From a virus, in the IMG/VR virus record IMGVR_UViG_3300042389_001739, positions 1-64,000 of that record: a stretch of DNA of 64,000 bases. The stretch is one strand, 5' to 3'. The number at the start of each line of letters is the position of its first letter. The stretch's first letter is position 1. The notes beneath the pieces are model-generated. The model was not told where the DNA came from. It worked only from the letters and a program-made list of their open reading frames with translations, and ran no database searches. A program made the translations under genes and the position numbers. Positions 785 to 44,601 of this stretch are shown in pieces.

Positions 785-1198
785 TTACTCTCCCCACACC
801 GGCACCACTTTGTAGCCATCAGCTTTATGCTCTTCCGCGTCCTGCTTACTGAGAAACAAGTAATACCGCATATTCAGCGAAACCTGCTTAAAAGCCCCTC
901 TTTTTTGACGCCAACAATCATCATCCTCATCTGCTGGCACAGCCGCCCAAAGTGGCTTATAGAGCTGTGCAGACTCGTCAGTTGGCTTTTCCGGATCAGT
1001 AGACGTGTCAGTCTGCTTCGATGCGTCCGCCAGTTGATCCACAATTTCGCAGGCAAGCTGATTAATGGTCGAGTTAACAATCGTCATTGCCTGATTTATC
1101 GTGGTTTCCCCGTGCACGTTAGGGTAGAAAACGGCGATATTAGTTAAGACTTCGAAATCTCTTTTAGCTTCTTTGTAATCATCCATCAATTTTCCCAT
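785..1198 (-). CDS. Hypothetical protein
   Basis: ORF 785..1261; likely start MGKLM at 1198 with GGGAG RBS; tight packing. Confidence 0.7.
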   Translation of the reverse strand: MGKLMDDYKEAKRDFEVLTNIAVFYPNVHGETTINQAMTIVNSTINQLACEIVDQLADASKQTDTSTDPEKPTDESAQLYKPLWAAVPADEDDDCWRQKRGAFKQVSLNMRYYLFLSKQDAEEHKADGYKVVPVWGE

Positions 1199-1326
1199 TA
1201 GTTGTCTCCCACTTTTCGTTTTTGTTGGTTCTTTAAATATGGATAGCGTGCACCGGCACATACGTGCTCCAGCACGTGTAAGGCGAACTATTCAGCCGCA
1301 TTTTCCGTAACCATTTTTTTAGCACT

Positions 1327-10104: not shown

Positions 10105-10323
10105 TTATCTCCCTTGAAAAAGTCGAGAATTAGTTTGCTTATAAACAACGTCATCCAGCGCGCGCTGCCAGCTTGACCAGCAATCCGGGTAACCTTTTTC
10201 TTCAAACACTTTCATCGCATGCCGACATTCCTGTTTGATTTTTGCTGAATCGCCGGTGTTAATTGCGCGAGTCAGCCTGGCTTTAAGTTGAGTAAGTTCT
10301 TGTTTTGGTAGCTTGTAACTCAC
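10105..10323 (-). CDS. Small phage hypothetical protein (GYPDxWxxWQRAxDD)
   Basis: 72-aa ORF, GGAG RBS. Confidence 0.65.
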   Translation of the reverse strand: MSYKLPKQELTQLKARLTRAINTGDSAKIKQECRHAMKVFEEKGYPDCWSSWQRALDDVVYKQTNSRLFQGR

Positions 10324-10381
10324 AGATTCTCCATCAAAGAATTAGAAAAATTCGGCCCAACCTATTGAGCCAAAAGGGGAA

Positions 10382-10625
10382 AAACCTGCACCACAGATAT
10401 CTCACTGTGATGCAGGTGACCCTGCCTTGCCCTGCCCTACCTTGCCCCGCCGCGCCTCGCCCCGCCAAGAGAAACCTGCACCACAGATATCTCACTGTGA
10501 TGCAGGTGACCCTGCCATGCCTGGCCCGGCCCCGCCACGCCTCGCCTTGCCCCGCCAGGAGAAACCTGCACCACAGGTATTTCACTGTGCTGCAGGTGAC
10601 CCTGCCATGCCTAGCCTTGCCATGC
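10382..10625 (-). ncRNA. Repeat array A: (GGY-NN)n tract + hairpin units, 90-nt period; putative guide-RNA array (VIPR-like)
   Basis: Constant AAACCTGCACCACAGATATCTCACTGTGATGCAGGTGACCCTGCC starts at 10382 and 10472; the copy at 10562 has three substitutions. Between them lie NN-RCC pentamer tracts (GGY-NN on minus): two full (10 GGY) and one partial (5 GGY). Confidence 0.85.
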
Positions 10626-10629
10626 TCTG

Positions 10630-11124
10630 TTAGTTTTTAGGTGGTTTAAAACATCCTACAGGTTTCAGTTTAGGCGGTGGTGCCAGATAGTCCGACTCTG
10701 TCGGATTCGAATGATGTTTAATTTCGCGTAACGATTTTTGCACCGCAACGAGCGACGCGCTGATTTTACGCGACTCAAGTTCATGTTGTCGCCGATCGAC
10801 TTCACCCAGCTGTGAAATGTCAACCTGATCCACGTGCCGTTTGCTGCGGCGGATCTTTTTTACACCCGTGCGAAATCTTTTAGCCTGGAATTCCACCGAT
10901 TCCGCGTCGGTCAAAACATAGACTGCACCTTTTACCGCACGTAAACTCCAACGCTTGCCTTGCGCCCAAAGTGCCTGCTCTAAAATTCCGGCTAACTGCA
11001 ACGCGACAAAATTCAAAGATTCAGGCGTAAAGTCTTCAACGCCAGCTATTTTGCTTACTTCGTCTGCAGGTATACAACTACCCTTTTCAAGGGTATCCAG
11101 AAATTTTAAATCGAAATTGGTCAT
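10630..11124 (-). CDS. Accessory protein of the RAMP/array locus (basic, helical; unknown function)
   Basis: ATGA-coupled (11121-11124) to the RAMP gene; stop codon abuts array A; basic stretch KRFRTGVKKIRRSKRH. Confidence 0.8.
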   Translation of the reverse strand: MTNFDLKFLDTLEKGSCIPADEVSKIAGVEDFTPESLNFVALQLAGILEQALWAQGKRWSLRAVKGAVYVLTDAESVEFQAKRFRTGVKKIRRSKRHVDQVDISQLGEVDRRQHELESRKISASLVAVQKSLREIKHHSNPTESDYLAPPPKLKPVGCFKPPKN

Positions 11125-11714
11125 GTAATCTCCTTAAAATCCGTAACCTCGAACAACCCAAATCGAGGGCGATAATCGCAAATGCCTACCGAACGGCCAG
11201 CAAGATGACAGATTCGTTCAAGATCGTCAACGTTGAAATCATAAAGATTAACTTCTATGTCTGCCGCCCACACATTAAAACGGGGACGATACCGCATAAT
11301 GCGCTTTGTCTGCACTCCAGCGCAGCGTAGATCCACGTATTTGTTGCCTGCATTCCAAAAGTCATCAATAGTTGCCTTCAAACCCACAGGGTGATCGTGA
11401 ATCAACAATGAGTCCTTTGTCACGATAACTCCAGCCAAGGCCTGCTTTTTCATCCGTAACTTAGTTGCCCCTGCGATTATCATTCCTTGTATGCAATCGG
11501 CAGTCAGTATTGGACGACGCTCCTTGTCATAGTAGAAGCCGTTGTACCAATCCAGTCTGGCAATCTCTATATAGTCTTCATCAGTCTTGTTTTTCTTTGA
11601 AGTGACTGCTTTTAACTGCTTACTTTCTTGGCTTAATGGATTAGCGGCACGTGAGGCGTGCATCAGTAGTGCACGCACCCCTTTAATAGAAAAACGAACG
11701 GAAGTTTCGGCCAT
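11121..11714 (-). CDS. Cas7/RAMP-fold RNA-binding protein (Vipr-like), 197 aa
   Basis: Start MAETSV at 11714 with AAGGA RBS. RAMP hallmarks: first strand VRFSIKGVRALLMH, ILTADCIQGMI (IPGSSLKG-equivalent), thumb IMRYRPRF, C-terminal Gly-rich loop AGRSVGICDYRPRFGLFEV. Confidence 0.8.
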   Translation of the reverse strand: MAETSVRFSIKGVRALLMHASRAANPLSQESKQLKAVTSKKNKTDEDYIEIARLDWYNGFYYDKERRPILTADCIQGMIIAGATKLRMKKQALAGVIVTKDSLLIHDHPVGLKATIDDFWNAGNKYVDLRCAGVQTKRIMRYRPRFNVWAADIEVNLYDFNVDDLERICHLAGRSVGICDYRPRFGLFEVTDFKEIT

Positions 11715-11843
11715 TAGCTGATTCCTTATTTTTGTTGCTTCCGCAGAAGCCGTTAAAATGTTTGTTTGTCCTGGCAGTAAAACTACTACCAGCACCTTAC
11801 ATTATCCGCCGCAACTGCATAGAAACCGCTGTTCTATTCAGTT

Positions 11844-12023
11844 AAACCTGCACCACAGATATCTCACTGTGATGCAGGTGACCCTGCCTTGCCCGGCCTT
11901 GCCATGCCGCGCCGTGCCTAGCCCCGCCAAGAGAAACCTGCACCACAGATATCTCACTGTGATGCAGGTGACCCTGCCCCGCCTGGCCCGACCTAGCCAT
12001 GCCTTACCATGCCCCGCCAAGCC
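11844..12023 (-). ncRNA. Repeat array B: two (GGY-NN)n tract + hairpin units, 90-nt period; putative guide-RNA array
   Basis: Same constant segment at 11844 and 11934; tracts at 11881-11928 (10 GGY) and 11971-12023 (11 GGY). Confidence 0.85.
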
Positions 12024-12034
12024 ATGTAATAAAC

Positions 12035-34761: not shown

Positions 34762-35413
34762 TGTTACTCCTAGTGGGAATATAGTTCACAATCTCATCTA
34801 CAATCCGCTCTGGTTCAACCAGCGCGTTGTCTTTAACGCAGCAAATTCGCACCGATTTTACGGTGGGTTGATATTCTATCAGACGATCCCGGTAAAAAGC
34901 ATTCACCTTTTCCAGAAGCGTCCGATCACGCTCATGCACGTCCAGTTTGCCGTCACGTTTTGCAACATTTTTTATTGCAAAATCCACCGGCATATCCAGG
35001 TAAACTAAAAGATCCGGTACGGGCAAACCAAACGTACCGTGTTCCAGTTTATCCAGGTATTTCAATAACCGATCCTGTTCTGCTCCTTCCGTTTTTGCGG
35101 CCAGATAGGCCAGGTTTGAGGCGACATACCGGTCCACAATCGCGATCGACTGTCCGTCTGCCGCCGCCTGCAGCTGATGCTGATCGGAATCAAATCGATT
35201 GATTGCCCACAGGGTACTACAAAACTCGGGAGTAATCGCCTGATGATACTTGTTATCCAAAATACGGCGAATCAACTGACCGCTGGCTGATTGATATTCC
35301 GGATACTTGACTACATACACCGGTAAACTCATTCGCTGGCGCAAACGCCACAATAAACGGTTAGCCGCGGTGGTTTTACCAGAACCGTCAATTCCCTCCA
35401 GATTAATGATCAC
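34754..35413 (-). CDS. tmk: Thymidylate kinase
   Basis: IINLEGIDGSGKTT, VDRYVASNLAY, PDLLVYLD. Confidence 0.93.
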   Translation of the reverse strand: MIINLEGIDGSGKTTAANRLLWRLRQRMSLPVYVVKYPEYQSASGQLIRRILDNKYHQAITPEFCSTLWAINRFDSDQHQLQAAADGQSIAIVDRYVASNLAYLAAKTEGAEQDRLLKYLDKLEHGTFGLPVPDLLVYLDMPVDFAIKNVAKRDGKLDVHERDRTLLEKVNAFYRDRLIEYQPTVKSVRICCVKDNALVEPERIVDEIVNYIPTRSNNG

Positions 35414-38400
35414 GCTTTGCCTTTCCGCTTACGCCATAGCTCATAGGACTTGTCCTCCAGGTTTCGTTGTGGTCTGACTTTGGTTGCCGCCACGATCGAT
35501 CGTTGCGGCTTTGTTGGGGCATCTTTGCTGTACGTTACCACACAACCCTCCGCCCCGCCGTGTCCGGTCGGCAGGCCGCGTTCTACCGCCTCGGCATAAA
35601 CTAGCTTTTCGCCCCAATAGTTCATCACCTCGGCTTCGATACCAAGATAATACGGACCGTCTCCTGTCGGAATCCCCTCCAAAGTACTGGGGTAAATCGG
35701 CACGGCCTTCCGCATGTAAGTCGGCAAAACATATTCGCAGACGTGTTTAACGTACCTGTCCGGCACTTCCAATAAAATGGCGTCATGAATCTGCAGCACG
35801 ACGTTAAAGAGATTATGCCCCTTTTTAGCCTGGCGTAGCTTGTAATCATAAAGATAAGCCAACGCACGCGACACCGCACTGGCGATCATGGACTGAATCG
35901 GGAAGTTCATGGCTTGGCGCCCAAACTCCGCCCGCAGAGCCTGATCCCGACTGGAATCCGGAAACCGCCGGAAGCGGCCGTAGCAGTTACAAAGCCAGCG
36001 ACTTTTAACTTGTTCCTGCGTGTTTTCGTCCGTGTAGGTACCTGCGGCCCGGTCCTGACACTCCTGAAAGAAAGGTCGCAGTTTAGGATACATTTCGAAA
36101 ATAGCGTTGATCACGGCTTGCGCTTCATCAACAGAAATGTCAATTTTCTGCTCCTTTGCGGCCACGGCAATCGCCTTAGCCCCTCGCCCGTAGGCGATTC
36201 CGAAAATCACGGACTTGGCCACAATCCGGATATGCTTTTTGCCAATGGCTTCCAGCCCACTTTTGGTGGGCGGACACTGCAGTTTAAAAGCAAAAACCGC
36301 CACATTGCTGTGGATGTCGTAGTAATCCGGATGATCTTCCGGCAACTGATTCCGCTGCGCGTGCGCAATCATATTCGGATCACCCGACATTACCGCCATC
36401 CCGAACAGTTCGGCGCCGACATAGTCGGCTTCCACCAGCACATGTCCCGGTGACGCTTTAAGCACGCTTCTCAGACTATATTTGTAATGCTCGCCAAGCA
36501 ACCGCTTGTAGTCCGGATCGCGTTGCTTGGAGATATTCTGCAGATTCGGTCGAGCACTGGACCAACGGCCAGTTTCCTTAGTCTGATAAATGTGGGTTCG
36601 TACTTTACCGTCATCGCAAACCAGTGAAGCCAACCCATCCTCGTATTCCATGTAACCGTCTTCGTTGTACTTTGCCTCCTCGGTCTTGTCGTCACGGCTG
36701 GGCGGACGCAGTACTGTCTTTAATACCTGATCAAGAAACCGATAATCCCGCAGCATGTCGATCAGACGCGCCTGATGCTCGTGTTCGGCGTCTTGTGCCA
36801 GTAGCGACAGCGCCTGTTTATTGGTAGAAGGCGAGTGGTTGTACTCCTGCTGCTGTCGCTTAATCTCCAGCCAGGGTCGCGGTGGTTTGGAGGTGTCAAA
36901 AACCGGGGTCAGTTTAAGCGAAGTTGCCCCTGGTGGTCGAATCTTGACCTCTTTCCCGGTTTCCTTGTTAATCCGGCCGTTGAGTTTTTCTCCGAATAAA
37001 AACTCCCGAACGTGCTGTGTCGAACGCACGTTGAACTCTGGCCAGTTAATTTCCGCTTTAAGTCGATTTTCCAGGTCTGCCCGTGCGTCCATAAACCGGG
37101 CCGTAAGAAAATCCACGCGGGAGCGGTCGACCATGATCCCGGTGCGGTGAATTTCCAACACCGCCGGGGTAGCAATCTGAGATTCCCAAAAGGCCTCCCG
37201 GCAGTTATTACCTTCGTAATCTTCATCCAGCAACAAGTCGAATTTGTAGAACAACCGCAAGGTTACGTCCGCGTCGTACATACCGTACGGCAGAAGAATT
37301 TCGTCAGGGCACATGCCGTACCCTTCGAGATCGCTGCTGCTCAGACCCTGCTGGCGACAGTAATCAATCTTCCACTTATCCAGCTCCCGGTCATAACGCG
37401 GTGCAGTGGTGTAACGCATGGCAAGCGTTTCCAGATTGTACTTGGCCGTCTCCTCGATAGCATGTGCCATCAAACCAGTGTCAGCACCGCCCTCGTATTT
37501 GGTGCGATACCAGGCGGGAACAACTTCACCCGCTTTGAAACCATCCTCCGCATACAACTTATGCAGCTTGGTGCCAGGCACCAGCGTGTAGTCGTAGAGC
37601 GGTGCCATGAAACATTCCTGCAGGTCGATGCCATAATCAACCAGCCACTCCAAGTCCGCGTTAAAGAAGTGCCCAATCACGCGTTTGCGGCGAAATTCAA
37701 CAGCACCGTTTGCATGCTCGTAACGGCCGCCCTTGAAAAAAACGTTAAGGAGTTTAATCGTTTCCTGCAAAATACCGCGTGCATTGGTTTCCTGCGGTGT
37801 GCCGCAAAAACCAAGCGTTACGTCACCCCCGGCGTCATGCAGTTTGATCCCGATCGCATGTTTTGGTCGCCAGGCAAACTGAATTGTGCGCATGTAGGTG
37901 TCGTGGTTGACCGGATGCTGACCGTGCCACTCCGCATCCACCGCAATCACATCGTCAGACTTTTCAGGATCCTGCTCGATGTTTACCAGCAGATCAAACA
38001 ACTGTGCGTGATTATCGACCACTACGTGATTGACCGTTTCGGTTTCGCCTAAATCTGCGCCTCGCAGCAAAGCCGCAAACCGGGCTAAACCACTTTCCAG
38101 CTGACGGAGTGCGGATTGATCACGGATGACCTGTTTGGGATGGACCACGGTAATGACTTTGGCTTCCTGCCAGCTGGTTTCAGCCAGTTCCGCAGTGTAC
38201 GCCGTGTTATACCGAAAAGTACCAACTTGACCCAGCATATCCGTAACGCTGGCTTGCGGACCAAGTATGGCTTTACTGGCATCTGTGCCCAGACAGAGAA
38301 TGTACTTGGGCTGTACGATTTTAATTTCCTGCATCAACAGGTGCATGCCGTCGTTGACCCAGGAAGCTTTTAACGTTGTCTTGAAGTTTGGGGGCTTAAA

Positions 38401-38976
38401 CTTGACCAGGTGTGTCAGGTAAAAGTCATCCAGCCGCTCAATCTTCAACCGCTGCATTAAATCGAACAGGAGCTCGCCGTCTGCGTCGCTGAGGCAGGCT
38501 TTATACTCCAGTTCCGTATCCCAGGGGTTTTTATTGATAATCATCACGCGTGCGGGGCGAGGTCCCGCGATGTCCAAGTGTTTAAGCGATTGCCCTCGCA
38601 AGTGACCCGGTAAAAACTTTGCGATTTTTTCCTGATGCGGTCCGACTTCCACCGGCATGGAAAAGTCGACCGTCCGCAATGCCCGCTGAATCAGGCGCTG
38701 CAAATCTTCGCTGTACTCCAGCTGCCGCACCTTTTTATCCTGCGCGTTTTTAACCTCTACAATTTTGCTCTTAGTGTCACCCAGCGCGTTGACGTGCGAA
38801 ACAAATGACGAATTGGGGGGCAGTACCGGCAGTCCAGGAGCATCCAGCGGAAAGATTGCGTCGCCCGTATGCATTGCCGCAATACGGGCCGCCTGGCGCT
38901 GCTCTAGCAGCAGCGTATTCTTTACAGGCGGTAAACTACCGTCCCGCATTCCTTTCAATTTACGTGGCGGAATCAT
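35410..38976 (-). CDS. polA: Family A DNA polymerase with N-terminal uracil-DNA-glycosylase-like domain and 3'-5' exonuclease
   Basis: UDG-like YLTHLVKFKPP...EIKIVQPKYILCLG...VVHP; exonuclease AVDAE, FNADL, YGMYD; polymerase TGRWSSARPNLQN, ADYVGAEL, AKSVIFGIAYG, NFPIQS, QIHDA. Confidence 0.95.
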   Translation of the reverse strand: MIPPRKLKGMRDGSLPPVKNTLLLEQRQAARIAAMHTGDAIFPLDAPGLPVLPPNSSFVSHVNALGDTKSKIVEVKNAQDKKVRQLEYSEDLQRLIQRALRTVDFSMPVEVGPHQEKIAKFLPGHLRGQSLKHLDIAGPRPARVMIINKNPWDTELEYKACLSDADGELLFDLMQRLKIERLDDFYLTHLVKFKPPNFKTTLKASWVNDGMHLLMQEIKIVQPKYILCLGTDASKAILGPQASVTDMLGQVGTFRYNTAYTAELAETSWQEAKVITVVHPKQVIRDQSALRQLESGLARFAALLRGADLGETETVNHVVVDNHAQLFDLLVNIEQDPEKSDDVIAVDAEWHGQHPVNHDTYMRTIQFAWRPKHAIGIKLHDAGGDVTLGFCGTPQETNARGILQETIKLLNVFFKGGRYEHANGAVEFRRKRVIGHFFNADLEWLVDYGIDLQECFMAPLYDYTLVPGTKLHKLYAEDGFKAGEVVPAWYRTKYEGGADTGLMAHAIEETAKYNLETLAMRYTTAPRYDRELDKWKIDYCRQQGLSSSDLEGYGMCPDEILLPYGMYDADVTLRLFYKFDLLLDEDYEGNNCREAFWESQIATPAVLEIHRTGIMVDRSRVDFLTARFMDARADLENRLKAEINWPEFNVRSTQHVREFLFGEKLNGRINKETGKEVKIRPPGATSLKLTPVFDTSKPPRPWLEIKRQQQEYNHSPSTNKQALSLLAQDAEHEHQARLIDMLRDYRFLDQVLKTVLRPPSRDDKTEEAKYNEDGYMEYEDGLASLVCDDGKVRTHIYQTKETGRWSSARPNLQNISKQRDPDYKRLLGEHYKYSLRSVLKASPGHVLVEADYVGAELFGMAVMSGDPNMIAHAQRNQLPEDHPDYYDIHSNVAVFAFKLQCPPTKSGLEAIGKKHIRIVAKSVIFGIAYGRGAKAIAVAAKEQKIDISVDEAQAVINAIFEMYPKLRPFFQECQDRAAGTYTDENTQEQVKSRWLCNCYGRFRRFPDSSRDQALRAEFGRQAMNFPIQSMIASAVSRALAYLYDYKLRQAKKGHNLFNVVLQIHDAILLEVPDRYVKHVCEYVLPTYMRKAVPIYPSTLEGIPTGDGPYYLGIEAEVMNYWGEKLVYAEAVERGLPTGHGGAEGCVVTYSKDAPTKPQRSIVAATKVRPQRNLEDKSYELWRKRKGKA

Positions 38977-44121: not shown

Positions 44122-44601
44122 CTATTCTTTAAATTTTTGACGGCGCAAATGAAATTCAACTACCTGATAATGCCCGTACTGCCCCGGCTGCCAGGGTGAT
44201 AATCCTTTGTATTTTCCTGCAATCTGTAATAACGACCAAAAATCAGCATCGTCAATTTCACTGGGCACAATGCAATTCAGCCCAATGGTTTGCCCGGTTT
44301 TAAGTGATTCATGCACACTCCACCGTTCTTTACCGTTATTGGTTTTCGGATAATAATGGCGGGCGAAGCAGTTTGGATGCAACTTGGCATCAATCTCGAT
44401 ATCCCAGCAAATTTTTTTAACTGTTTCCTGATGTCTGCCCAGCATATCCGCAGCAAGCACCATGTTGCTGTAGTGCCACGTAGGTAAAAACAAAATCTTG
44501 TTATCCAGGCTGCGCTGAAACGTATATCGGCCGTTTGGACCTTTTTGATTGCCCAGACTCGGATTTGTAAACTGGATTTTTACCGTCAGCTCACGCATCA
44601 T
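44122..44601 (-). CDS. Second small RAMP/Cas7-like protein
   Basis: ELTVKIQFTNPSLG first strand; HESLKTGQTI; Gly-rich loop AGKYKGLSPWQPGQYGHYQV. Confidence 0.6.
   Translation of the reverse strand: MMRELTVKIQFTNPSLGNQKGPNGRYTFQRSLDNKILFLPTWHYSNMVLAADMLGRHQETVKKICWDIEIDAKLHPNCFARHYYPKTNNGKERWSVHESLKTGQTIGLNCIVPSEIDDADFWSLLQIAGKYKGLSPWQPGQYGHYQVVEFHLRRQKFKE

What the first reader, a model, noticed from the sequence alone, without database searches (positions are those of the whole stretch)
10418..12023. The information lies in the dinucleotides: decoded non-contiguous guide code of five units
NN series on the minus strand, 5'->3', omitting the final invariant GGT-CA. Unit 12023-11971: TT,GG,AT,AA,AT,TA,CG,CA,GG,AG. 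Unit 11928-11881: GG,TA,AC,GC,AT,AA,CG,AA,AG. Partial unit next to the accessory stop: AA,TA,AT,AG. Unit 10556-10509: GG,AA,GA,GT,GG,CG,CA,AT,AG. Unit 10466-10419: GG,GA,GC,GG,AA,AG,AG,AA,AG. The GG is invariant across all 46 pentamers and its third base only toggles C/T, while the NN differ between units. In the four full units a leading GG and final AG are fixed, leaving 7 free dinucleotides (14 nt). A fixed scaffold with hypervariable interleaved positions is expected for a guide rather than for a slippage microsatellite. If one target base is skipped per dinucleotide, the targets would be codon-periodic and could tolerate wobble-position mutations (inference). I found no self-target by eye, but that search was not exhaustive.
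Basis: partly seen in the sequence, partly recalled or inferred. Interest (0 to 1): 0.88.

Follow-up and report, generated by a model that had tools for sequence, protein, structure and literature searches.

The report
VIPR guide-RNA locus in lake phage

Summary
A strict GG[C/T]NN caller finds five arrays in the whole 79.7-kb virus record, all on the minus strand at this locus: 11, 10, 5, 10 and 10 units, 46 pentamers. Markov surrogates never exceed five units.

The arrays flank a two-gene cassette:
- **vipr (11714-11121):** matches the solved SUSP1 Vipr protein (PDB 36pp, E 1e-18) and keeps its GGY-binding residues. The model has a Cas7/Csm3 fold.
- **Accessory gene (11124-10630):** translationally coupled to vipr.

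Each array ends in a conserved 13-bp hairpin. This is a VIPR system (Viral Interference Programmable Repeat; bioRxiv 10.64898/2026.04.26.720920, .720927 and 2026.10.15.759431).

Features particular to this locus:
- A plain hairpin tail instead of the SUSP1 pseudoknot.
- Exactly seven variable dinucleotides per guide, bracketed by constant GG and AG.
- Guide turnover between strains in lake metagenomes.
- A sister cassette in otherwise unrelated phages.

No target was found. There is no self-target. Exact gapped scans of the viral, metagenome and genome collections gave only chance-like hits. This scan has noted VIPR-like loci before in at least 284 other genomes. Verdict: new member of a known kind, low interest.

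The parts
11933..12023 (-). vrRNA unit 1. GGYNN array 12023-11969 (11 units; NN = TT GG AT AA AT TA CG CA GG AG CA), then the tail hairpin 11969-11936 and UUUCUC.
   Evidence: Caller. Hairpin hits. RNA fold -48.8 kcal/mol, z -5.95.
11844..11928 (-). vrRNA unit 2. Array 11928-11879 (10 units; NN = GG TA AC GC AT AA CG AA AG CA), then hairpin 11878-11847 and UUU.
11121..11714 (-). vipr gene, 197 aa from the ATG at 11714. The longer GTG frame from 11795 is probably not used: AAGGA lies 9 nt before the ATG and homologues begin there.
   Evidence: PDB 36pp 'SUSP1 Vipr protein' E 9.6e-19 with H17, K33, R138, D177, R179 and PRFG conserved and W178 as Y. phrog_4652 E 1.8e-36. Model pLDDT 90. Best folds are Csm3/Cmr4 Cas7 RAMPs, probability 1.00.
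10630..11124 (-). vap-like accessory gene, 164 aa. Its ATG overlaps the vipr TGA (ATGA). The model shows a small helix-helix-beta-hairpin N-terminal domain and a long helical hairpin.
   Evidence: Homologues at 57-60% identity. Syntenic next to vipr in L001 and L010-L013. Weak match to the LESphi2 vap-position gene (E 0.005). Model pLDDT 76. Only weak winged-helix fold matches.
10562..10621 (-). Truncated vrRNA unit 3. It has five GGYNN units (NN = AA TA AT AG CA) starting 9 nt after the vap stop. Its tail hairpin 10596-10565 is a variant with a G-G mismatch and a changed loop.
10472..10556 (-). vrRNA unit 4. Array 10556-10507 (NN = GG AA GA GT GG CG CA AT AG CA), then hairpin 10506-10475.
10380..10466 (-). 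vrRNA unit 5. Array 10466-10417 (NN = GG GA GC GG AA AG AG AA AG CA), then hairpin 10416-10385 and UUUUU.
   Evidence: Strain variants are confined to NN/Y positions and the neighbouring tail.
10351..10374 (-). Terminator-like hairpin with a T run, just downstream of the last unit. It is a possible end of the VIPR transcription unit.
   Evidence: Consensus scan only.

Best explanation
Window 10380-12023 (minus strand) is a complete VIPR locus of an uncultivated freshwater-lake phage. It holds vipr (a minimal Cas7-like RAMP), a coupled accessory gene (vap-like) and five vrRNA genes, two upstream and three downstream, one of them truncated.

Shown here:
- The repeat anatomy.
- Homology and fold of the protein.
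- Conservation of the residues that bind G1, G2 and Y3 in the solved SUSP1 complex.
- A stable conserved tail hairpin.
- Co-occurrence of vipr homologues with GGYNN arrays in seven other phage loci.
- Guide turnover between strains.

Inferred from the published SUSP1 and P. fulva work:
- One Vipr protomer binds each pentamer and sequesters GGY.
- The protomer presents the two N bases, which pair with one DNA strand while every third target base is skipped.
- The filament forms an R-loop triplex that grows from the tail-proximal end and blocks transcription of the target.
- The target is most likely a gene of a competing phage, satellite or prophage in the same host.

Here each full guide carries seven programmable dinucleotides (14 nt), or nine (18 nt) if the constant GG and AG also pair.
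For: - **Arrays:**. There are 46 perfect GGY units in five arrays and nowhere else in the genome; the null maximum is 5 units.
- **Protein sequence:** PDB 36pp Vipr E 9.6e-19 with the GGY-contact residues conserved. phrog_4652 E 1.8e-36.
- **Protein fold:** AlphaFold pLDDT 90, and the top 40 or more Foldseek hits are Cas7-family subunits (Csm3, Cmr4, type VII Cas7) at probability 1.00.
- **Tail:** five copies of a 13-bp stem with an 8-nt loop. The sister loci keep a hairpin with a conserved loop on different, complementary stems.
- **Association across phages:** GGYNN arrays flank vipr homologues in L001, L002, L003, L006 (Pseudomonas phage LESphi2), L007 (Escherichia phage tootiki) and L010-L013.
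- **Viral context:** the record is a virus record with terminase, PolA-UDG and SbcC genes.
- **No self-target:** nothing at or above 80%, as the VIPR papers report for their systems.
- **Population data:** a strain contig (X7, record 26) is identical over 10167-10426 but differs at 13 listed positions within 10427-10491. Nine are NN positions, one is a Y position, one is in the leader and two are in the neighbouring tail loop. Other contigs join the same leader and tail across different GGY/NN content.
- **Published mechanism:**
Against: - No natural target was identified. Exact 1-nt-skip scans gave 0 hits in viral contigs for vr1, vr2 and vr4, and two unrelated hits for the purine-rich vr5 with the skipped base at codon position 2.
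- The 30 metagenome hits for vr4 fall in unrelated housekeeping genes and mixed frames.
- The 8 genome hits for vr2 fall in eight unrelated taxa and mixed registers.
- Expression, processing and RNP formation are untested.
- No sigma-70-like promoter passed the consensus scan upstream of either array block.
- The accessory protein matches the LESphi2 gene in the vap position only weakly, and does not detectably match the SUSP1-type one.
- The tail is a plain hairpin, not the pseudoknot of the SUSP1 clade.
Confidence: 0.87

Rival explanations
1. The RNAs bind the RAMP protein but act in cis as a protein-dependent attenuator, like TRAP on spaced GAG/UAG triplets. Vipr coats the GGY triplets and controls formation of the following hairpin-U tract, which regulates read-through into vipr/vap and the downstream genes. 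There would be no DNA target.
For: Each array is followed by a strong hairpin plus a U run, and two copies score as terminator-like. The arrays lie in the same orientation as the operon, directly before and after the genes. No target was found.
Against: An attenuator has no need for NN to differ between units or to turn over between strains while GGY stays fixed. The homologous SUSP1 and P. fulva systems are shown to bind DNA by the NN code. The GGY-contact and DNA-backbone residues K33 and K88 are conserved.
Confidence: 0.05
2. Some or all units are decoys or leftovers rather than working guides. The truncated unit 3 would be a decaying copy. The purine-rich full units could redirect or soak up rival Vipr proteins, as satellite solo vrRNAs do, rather than silence a specific rival gene.
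For: Unit 3 has only four NN plus CA and a hairpin with a G-G mismatch. Solo vrRNAs that redirect VIPR to decoy sites are published. No target was found for any guide.
Against: The locus carries its own intact vipr with conserved functional residues. The four full units are perfect in scaffold and tail, and strain-level replacement of guides argues for selection on their content.
Confidence: 0.06
3. The repeats are a slippage microsatellite or minisatellite, or encode a repetitive peptide, and sit next to the RAMP gene by accident.
For: Tandem Repeats Finder reports period-5, -10, -15, -20 and -90 repeats. Open frames of 60-111 aa run through the arrays on both strands.
Against: Slippage copies whole units, whereas here the GG and Y columns are fixed and the NN columns vary. 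A 5-nt period cannot keep a reading frame. The overlapping ORFs match no Pfam family. The same array type flanks vipr homologues in nine other phage loci with quite different sequences.
Confidence: 0.01

Closest known systems
Type II VIPR systems of Escherichia phage SUSP1 and the Pseudomonas fulva prophage (bioRxiv 10.64898/2026.04.26.720920 and 10.64898/2026.04.26.720927)
   Same: A two-gene vipr-vap cassette in a phage. vrRNA genes lie both upstream and downstream. Each vrRNA has 10-11 GGYNN repeats, within the published 9-16 range. GGY is invariant, NN is variable and each vrRNA has an invariant structured 3' tail. Vipr is about 20 kDa with the same GGY-contact residues. There is no self-target.
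   Different: Vipr is only about 29% identical to the SUSP1-type protein and 34% to the Pseudomonas LESphi2 one. The tail is a simple 13-bp hairpin plus U tract, not a pseudoknot. Every full guide has the same length, with constant first (GG) and last (AG) dinucleotides. The accessory protein is barely or not alignable with theirs. Host and targets are unknown. Type assignment was not tested against the authors' tree.
Sister VIPR cassettes in IMG/VR contigs L010-L013
   Same: Vipr is 54% and vap 58% identical. The order is the same, with arrays on both sides and hairpin tails.
   Different: They sit in otherwise unrelated phage genomes, with only one further shared gene. Their arrays have 9-18 units with degenerate units. 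Their tails have a different, conserved loop on varying stems followed by GGATTG. Their guides are not purine-rich.
Class 1 CRISPR-Cas effector backbones (Cas7/Csm3/Cmr4 on crRNA)
   Same: The same RAMP fold. One protomer binds per fixed RNA step, with thumb-driven periodic base flipping (published).
   Different: There is no CRISPR array with contiguous spacers and no cas1/cas2 or other cas genes in the 79.7-kb record. The step is 5 nt with only 2 pairing bases, not 6 nt with 5 pairing bases. The system is phage-borne.
TRAP-trp leader RNA (Bacillus): protein binding to spaced triplet repeats
   Same: Conserved triplets separated by 2-nt spacers lie in front of a terminator-like hairpin.
   Different: The protein is a RAMP, not a TRAP beta-wheel. 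The spacers are the informative part here, and the published output is DNA binding rather than attenuation.

Membership tests
VIPR system | Vipr protein: a minimal RAMP (RRM core, G-loop, thumb) homologous to the Vipr family | tested here: met
   phmmer to PDB 36pp_D 'SUSP1 Vipr protein' E 9.6e-19 over residues 35-218. phrog_4652 E 1.8e-36. Model pLDDT 90, pTM 0.84. Foldseek top hits are Csm3/Cmr4/Cas7 at probability 1.00, E 5e-5 to 1e-3.
VIPR system | Residues that read G1, G2 and Y3 and hold the DNA backbone in the solved SUSP1 complex (H17, R138, D177, W178, R179; K33, K88) | tested here: met
   Alignment: H17=H, K33=K, K88=K, R138=R, D177=D, W178 is Y (still aromatic), R179=R, and the PRFG motif is identical. 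K82 aligns to T with K at the next position, and R39 aligns to K.
VIPR system | vrRNA genes: at least 4 (typically 9-16) tandem YNNGG/GGYNN units with conserved GGY and variable NN, beside vipr | tested here: met
   Five arrays of 11, 10, 5, 10 and 10 perfect units flank the cassette and none occurs elsewhere in the genome. The null maximum is 5.
VIPR system | Invariable, structured 3' tail after the repeat tract | tested here: met
   The same 32-nt hairpin follows all five arrays and folds are stable. It is a plain stem-loop, not the SUSP1-clade pseudoknot. Sister loci keep the hairpin with changed stems.
VIPR system | Adjacent vipr-accessory (vap) gene | tested here: met
   A 164-aa ORF overlaps the vipr stop by ATGA. 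It is conserved next to vipr in L001 and L010-L013. Which vap class it belongs to is inconclusive: a weak match to the LESphi2 gene (E 0.005), none to the tootiki gene, and only weak winged-helix fold hits.
VIPR system | Carried by a virus or provirus | tested here: met
   The genome is held as a virus record. It carries terminase gpA, a PolA-UDG fusion and SbcC. It is found in lake-water and freshwater metagenomes.
VIPR system | No self-target at or above 80% NN match on the source contig | tested here: met
   The best 1-nt-skip scores are 13-15 of 18-22 positions, and the core-only best is 12 of 14.
VIPR system | Natural targets that obey the 1-nt-skip rule in competing mobile elements | tested here: inconclusive
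   Exact-match scans of viral contigs (all four guides), metagenome contigs (vr4) and genome contigs (vr2) gave none or chance-like hits. Mismatch-tolerant scans of 133 kb of related loci were at the null level for all skip lengths. The host is unknown, and no mismatch-tolerant search of large collections was possible.
VIPR system | vrRNAs are expressed as roughly 100-nt RNAs and co-purify with Vipr | not testable with these tools
   No run holding the locus is on record as RNA. This needs sRNA-seq and pull-down.
VIPR type II (SUSP1 / P. fulva type) | Placement in the type II clade of the authors' Vipr phylogeny, with a vap1-type DNA-binding accessory gene | not tested
   Reference sequences for the seven types were not available. 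The only indirect support is the two-gene architecture with flanking arrays and 29-34% identity to type II-like phage proteins.
CRISPR-Cas | CRISPR array of identical repeats separated by contiguous spacers, plus cas1/cas2 or a multi-subunit effector | tested here: not met
   The repeated unit is itself a 5-nt periodic array. Rfam gives no CRISPR repeat above threshold. No other cas-like family turned up in the ORFs scanned.

The most novel reading that the evidence does not exclude
In this clade the programmable part of the guide may be only seven dinucleotides (14 nt). The constant tail-proximal AG (and GGT-CA) and the constant leader-proximal GG would then act as fixed anchors. They could be a built-in seed or PAM-like requirement at the end where R-loop formation starts, or non-pairing caps for filament assembly. 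That would be a shorter and differently organised guide than the 9-16 fully programmable repeats described, with a plain terminator-like hairpin replacing the pseudoknot cap.
Probability: 0.2. Interest if true: 0.4.

Novelty: new member of a known kind. Interest (0 to 1): 0.24.

Why it matters
It extends VIPR, so far characterised in enterobacterial and Pseudomonas phages, to an abundant uncultivated freshwater-lake phage that recurs in lake metagenomes from 2016 to 2024. It shows guide turnover between natural strains. It also shows the same cassette type moving between unrelated phages.

The compact, uniform design could be a convenient minimal variant for engineering. That design is a 197-aa protein, RNA units of about 90 nt, seven variable dinucleotides and a simple hairpin tail.

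Tried and rejected
- **Rfam:** nothing at gathering thresholds in the whole window. At E up to 1 in the locus there were only two chance-level rows.
- **Pfam:** nothing for vipr, vap, the neighbouring ORFs or the four ORFs overlapping the arrays.
- **Exact tail pattern:** 0 hits in viral contigs and metagenome contigs.
- **Exact 1-nt-skip target scans, viral contigs:** vr1 with TT (20 specified bases) and without (18), vr2 and vr4 all gave 0. vr5 gave 2 hits, L008 (portal C-terminus) and L009. The two proteins are unrelated, the skipped base is at codon position 2 and the pattern is purine-rich, so I read them as chance.
- **Exact scan, metagenome contigs, vr4:** 30 stretches, about 18 distinct. 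They fall in a glycosyl hydrolase, an aminotransferase, a TctA transporter, a GAF protein, Met-tRNA synthetase and unknowns, in mixed frames. I read them as chance.
- **Exact scan, genome contigs, vr2:** 8 hits in 8 unrelated taxa, in mixed registers.
- **Mismatch-tolerant scans:** our guides at skips 0-3 against 133 kb of fetched loci with shuffled-NN nulls showed no excess. 27 guides from other VIPR loci against this genome and 21 guides against all related loci also showed no excess.
- **Guides read as codons by eye:** for example vr4 as G-[KN]-[DE]-V-G-R-[HQ]-[IM]-S and vr5 as G-[DE]-A-G-[NK]-[SR]. No family could be assigned.
- **Promoters:** the sigma-70 consensus scan found none upstream of the arrays. 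By eye, TTGTAT-17-TAATAT before unit 1 matches only 7 of 12.
- **vap fold search:** Foldseek gave only E above 0.2 (Z-alpha, PadR and GntR winged helices). The VIA wide search was dominated by generic helical hairpins.
- **Expression:** no RNA holder was listed among the sequencing runs.
- **Host:** I could not test this.
Full report
**What is in the sequence**

On the minus strand, window 12023-10380 holds five units of one design. Each unit has four parts:
- a short leader, (C)YTGGC;
- a run of pentamers of the form GG-[C/T]-NN;
- the invariant end GGC-AG-GGT-CA;
- a 32-nt inverted repeat followed by a short U/T run.

A strict caller applied to the whole 79,722-bp record finds exactly five arrays, all here (for the record, for the caller). 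The window is the first 64 kb of that record. The arrays are 12023-11969 (11 units), 11928-11879 (10), 10621-10597 (5), 10556-10507 (10) and 10466-10417 (10), 46 pentamers in all.

In 200 Markov surrogates of the genome the longest such run was 5 units and the mean maximum was 3.1. The hairpin pattern occurs five times against zero expected.

**The genes between the arrays**

Two units lie upstream and three downstream of a two-gene cassette.

The first gene matches PHROG 4652 at E 1.8e-36. It also matches one solved structure, PDB 36pp 'SUSP1 Vipr protein', at E 9.6e-19. I place its start at the ATG at 11714, which gives 197 aa. An AAGGA lies 9 nt upstream of that ATG, and homologues start there.

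Taking residue roles from the cryo-EM paper, the alignment shows these equivalences:

| SUSP1 residue | Role in the solved complex | Here |
|---|---|---|
| H17 | reads G1 | H |
| D177 | reads G1 | D |
| R138 | holds G2 | R |
| W178 | stacks on G2 | Y (aromatic kept) |
| R179 | holds Y3 | R |
| PRFG motif | G-loop | identical |
| K33 | target-strand backbone contact | K |
| K88 | non-target-strand backbone contact | K |

An AlphaFold model built on 12 homologues has pLDDT 90 and pTM 0.84. Its best structural matches are all Cas7-type RAMP subunits (Csm3, Cmr4, type VII Cas7) at Foldseek probability 1.00.

The second gene (164 aa) starts with an ATG that overlaps the vipr stop codon. It has 57-60% identical relatives and lies next to vipr in five other loci. 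Its model (pLDDT 76) shows a small helix-helix-beta-hairpin domain followed by a long helical hairpin. Fold searches gave only weak winged-helix hits. It therefore fits the published description of DNA-binding vap genes only loosely.

**What it is**

The literature search on the PDB name led to three 2026 preprints on VIPR (Viral Interference Programmable Repeat) systems. They define the system as follows:
- a phage-borne Vipr RAMP, usually with a vap gene;
- flanking vrRNAs made of 9-16 YNNGG repeats followed by an invariant structured tail;
- one Vipr protomer per repeat, which hides the GGY and presents the NN;
- NN pairing with double-stranded DNA while one target base is skipped per repeat;
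- an R-loop triplex that silences transcription.

Natural targets are competing satellites, prophages and other VIPR systems. The skipped base usually falls on the codon wobble position, and no self-targets reach 80%. The locus meets every defining feature I could test; the membership table gives the details.

I confirmed the link between vipr homologues and GGYNN arrays independently of the papers. Arrays flank the homologue in these loci:
- IMG/VR loci L001, L002 and L003;
- Pseudomonas phage LESphi2;
- Escherichia phage tootiki;
- the four sister loci L010-L013.

**The tail**

Each unit ends in a 13-bp stem with an 8-nt loop and a U run. Whole-unit folds give z-scores of -3.3 to -6 for the four full units and -2.15 for the truncated unit 3. 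Two copies score as terminator-like.

The sister clade also uses a hairpin. Its loop is conserved (CUGAAAUUA-like) and sits on four different but internally complementary stems. This argues that the stem-loop itself is the selected feature. It differs from the pseudoknot described for the SUSP1 clade.

Unit 3 starts 9 nt after the vap stop. It has only four NN plus CA, and its hairpin carries a G-G mismatch and a changed loop. I read it as a truncated unit with too few informative positions to target anything uniquely.

**Population evidence**

The locus is present in lake-water and freshwater metagenome runs from 24 studies between 2016 and 2024.

Laying contigs from four of those runs gave a strain contig (X7, record 26, 366 nt). 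It is identical to the window over 10167-10426 but differs at 13 listed positions within 10427-10491. Nine are NN positions of unit 5, one is a Y position, one is in the leader and two are in the neighbouring tail loop. The two loop changes convert that loop to the unit-3 variant.

Other contigs join the same leader and tail across different GGY/NN content. Many loose ends carry further GCC-NN arrays. So guides are replaced between strains while the scaffold and flanks stay fixed, and such arrays are common in these lakes.

One caveat applies. Short contigs laid at 80% likeness align through the shared scaffold, so the concentration of differences on NN columns is partly built in. The identical 260-nt flank of record 26 is the stronger point.

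**Mobility**

L010-L013 carry vipr (54% identity) and vap (58%) in the same order with arrays on both sides. They share only one other gene with this phage, the homologue of ORF 785-1261. The cassette therefore moves between unrelated phages.

**Targets**

I applied the published rule (NN, one wildcard, NN) on both strands.
- **Own genome:** no match reaches 80%.
- **Viral collection:** exact scans gave nothing for vr1 (two versions), vr2 and vr4. The purine-rich vr5 gave two hits, in unrelated proteins and with the skipped base at codon position 2.
- **Metagenome collection, vr4:** the 30 exact hits fall in unrelated housekeeping genes and mixed frames.
- **Genome collection, vr2:** the eight hits fall in eight unrelated taxa.
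- **Fetched relatives:** mismatch-tolerant scans of all fetched loci, at skips 0-3 and with shuffled-NN nulls, showed no excess.
- **Other phages' guides:** guides from other VIPR loci do not match this genome or each other's loci.

The target is therefore unknown. This does not count against the system. The host is unknown, the large collections could only be searched for perfect matches, and it is unclear whether the constant GG and AG dinucleotides pair at all.

The 28 variable dinucleotides are purine-rich at both positions: 75% at the first and 71% at the second (my count). This would fit guides that read like the mRNA-sense strand of coding targets, but that is inference only.

**Comparison and verdict**

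The locus works like, and by all testable criteria is, a VIPR system. It is closest in architecture to the type II systems of SUSP1 and P. fulva, though I could not place it in the authors' typology. Its own features are:
- a divergent protein (29-34% identity to characterised relatives);
- a plain hairpin tail;
- guides of uniform length, with seven variable dinucleotides between constant ones;
- a divergent accessory protein.

This scan has also noted VIPR-like loci in at least 284 other genomes. I rate it a new member of a known kind, of low interest unless its targets or the role of the constant end dinucleotides turn out to be unusual.

Noticed in passing
window 44122-44601 (-): This 159-aa protein has a weak C-terminal resemblance to the Vipr G-loop region (phrog_4652 E 0.006; hhalign against the Vipr alignment gives probability 40% over 39 columns). 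It lacks the D-[WY]-R motif. It could be a second, very divergent RAMP-like protein, with no GGY array nearby.
   Followed up: partly
window 785-1261 (-); L010:8907-9723, L011:12258-12611, L012:3378-3731: This is the only gene besides vipr and vap that the phage shares with the sister VIPR phages (31-33% identity). There it lies 1.6-2.4 kb downstream of vap and is duplicated in L010; here it is about 9.4 kb from the cassette. Its function is unknown, and it might be a further VIPR-associated gene.
   Followed up: no
window 35410-38976 (-): A 1188-aa protein combines a uracil-DNA-glycosylase-superfamily domain, a 3'-5' exonuclease domain and a family A DNA polymerase in one frame.
   Followed up: no
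window 10420-10560 and 11885-12026 (read laying loose ends): Contigs from the same lake metagenomes carry many other GCC-NN / GGY-NN arrays attached to different flanks. VIPR-type arrays therefore seem common in these freshwater communities.
   Followed up: partly
L009:3213-3238 (-): The exact vr5 match in this 43.7-kb viral contig covers the AAGGAG ribosome-binding site and ends right at the ATG of a phrog_28375 gene. The 3' half of vr5 (AA AG AG AA AG) reads like a Shine-Dalgarno-rich tract under the skip rule. It is a single hit at chance level.
   Followed up: partly
window 10351-10374 (-): A separate terminator-like hairpin with a T run lies immediately after the last vrRNA unit and before the next gene (GTG at 10323).
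   Followed up: no
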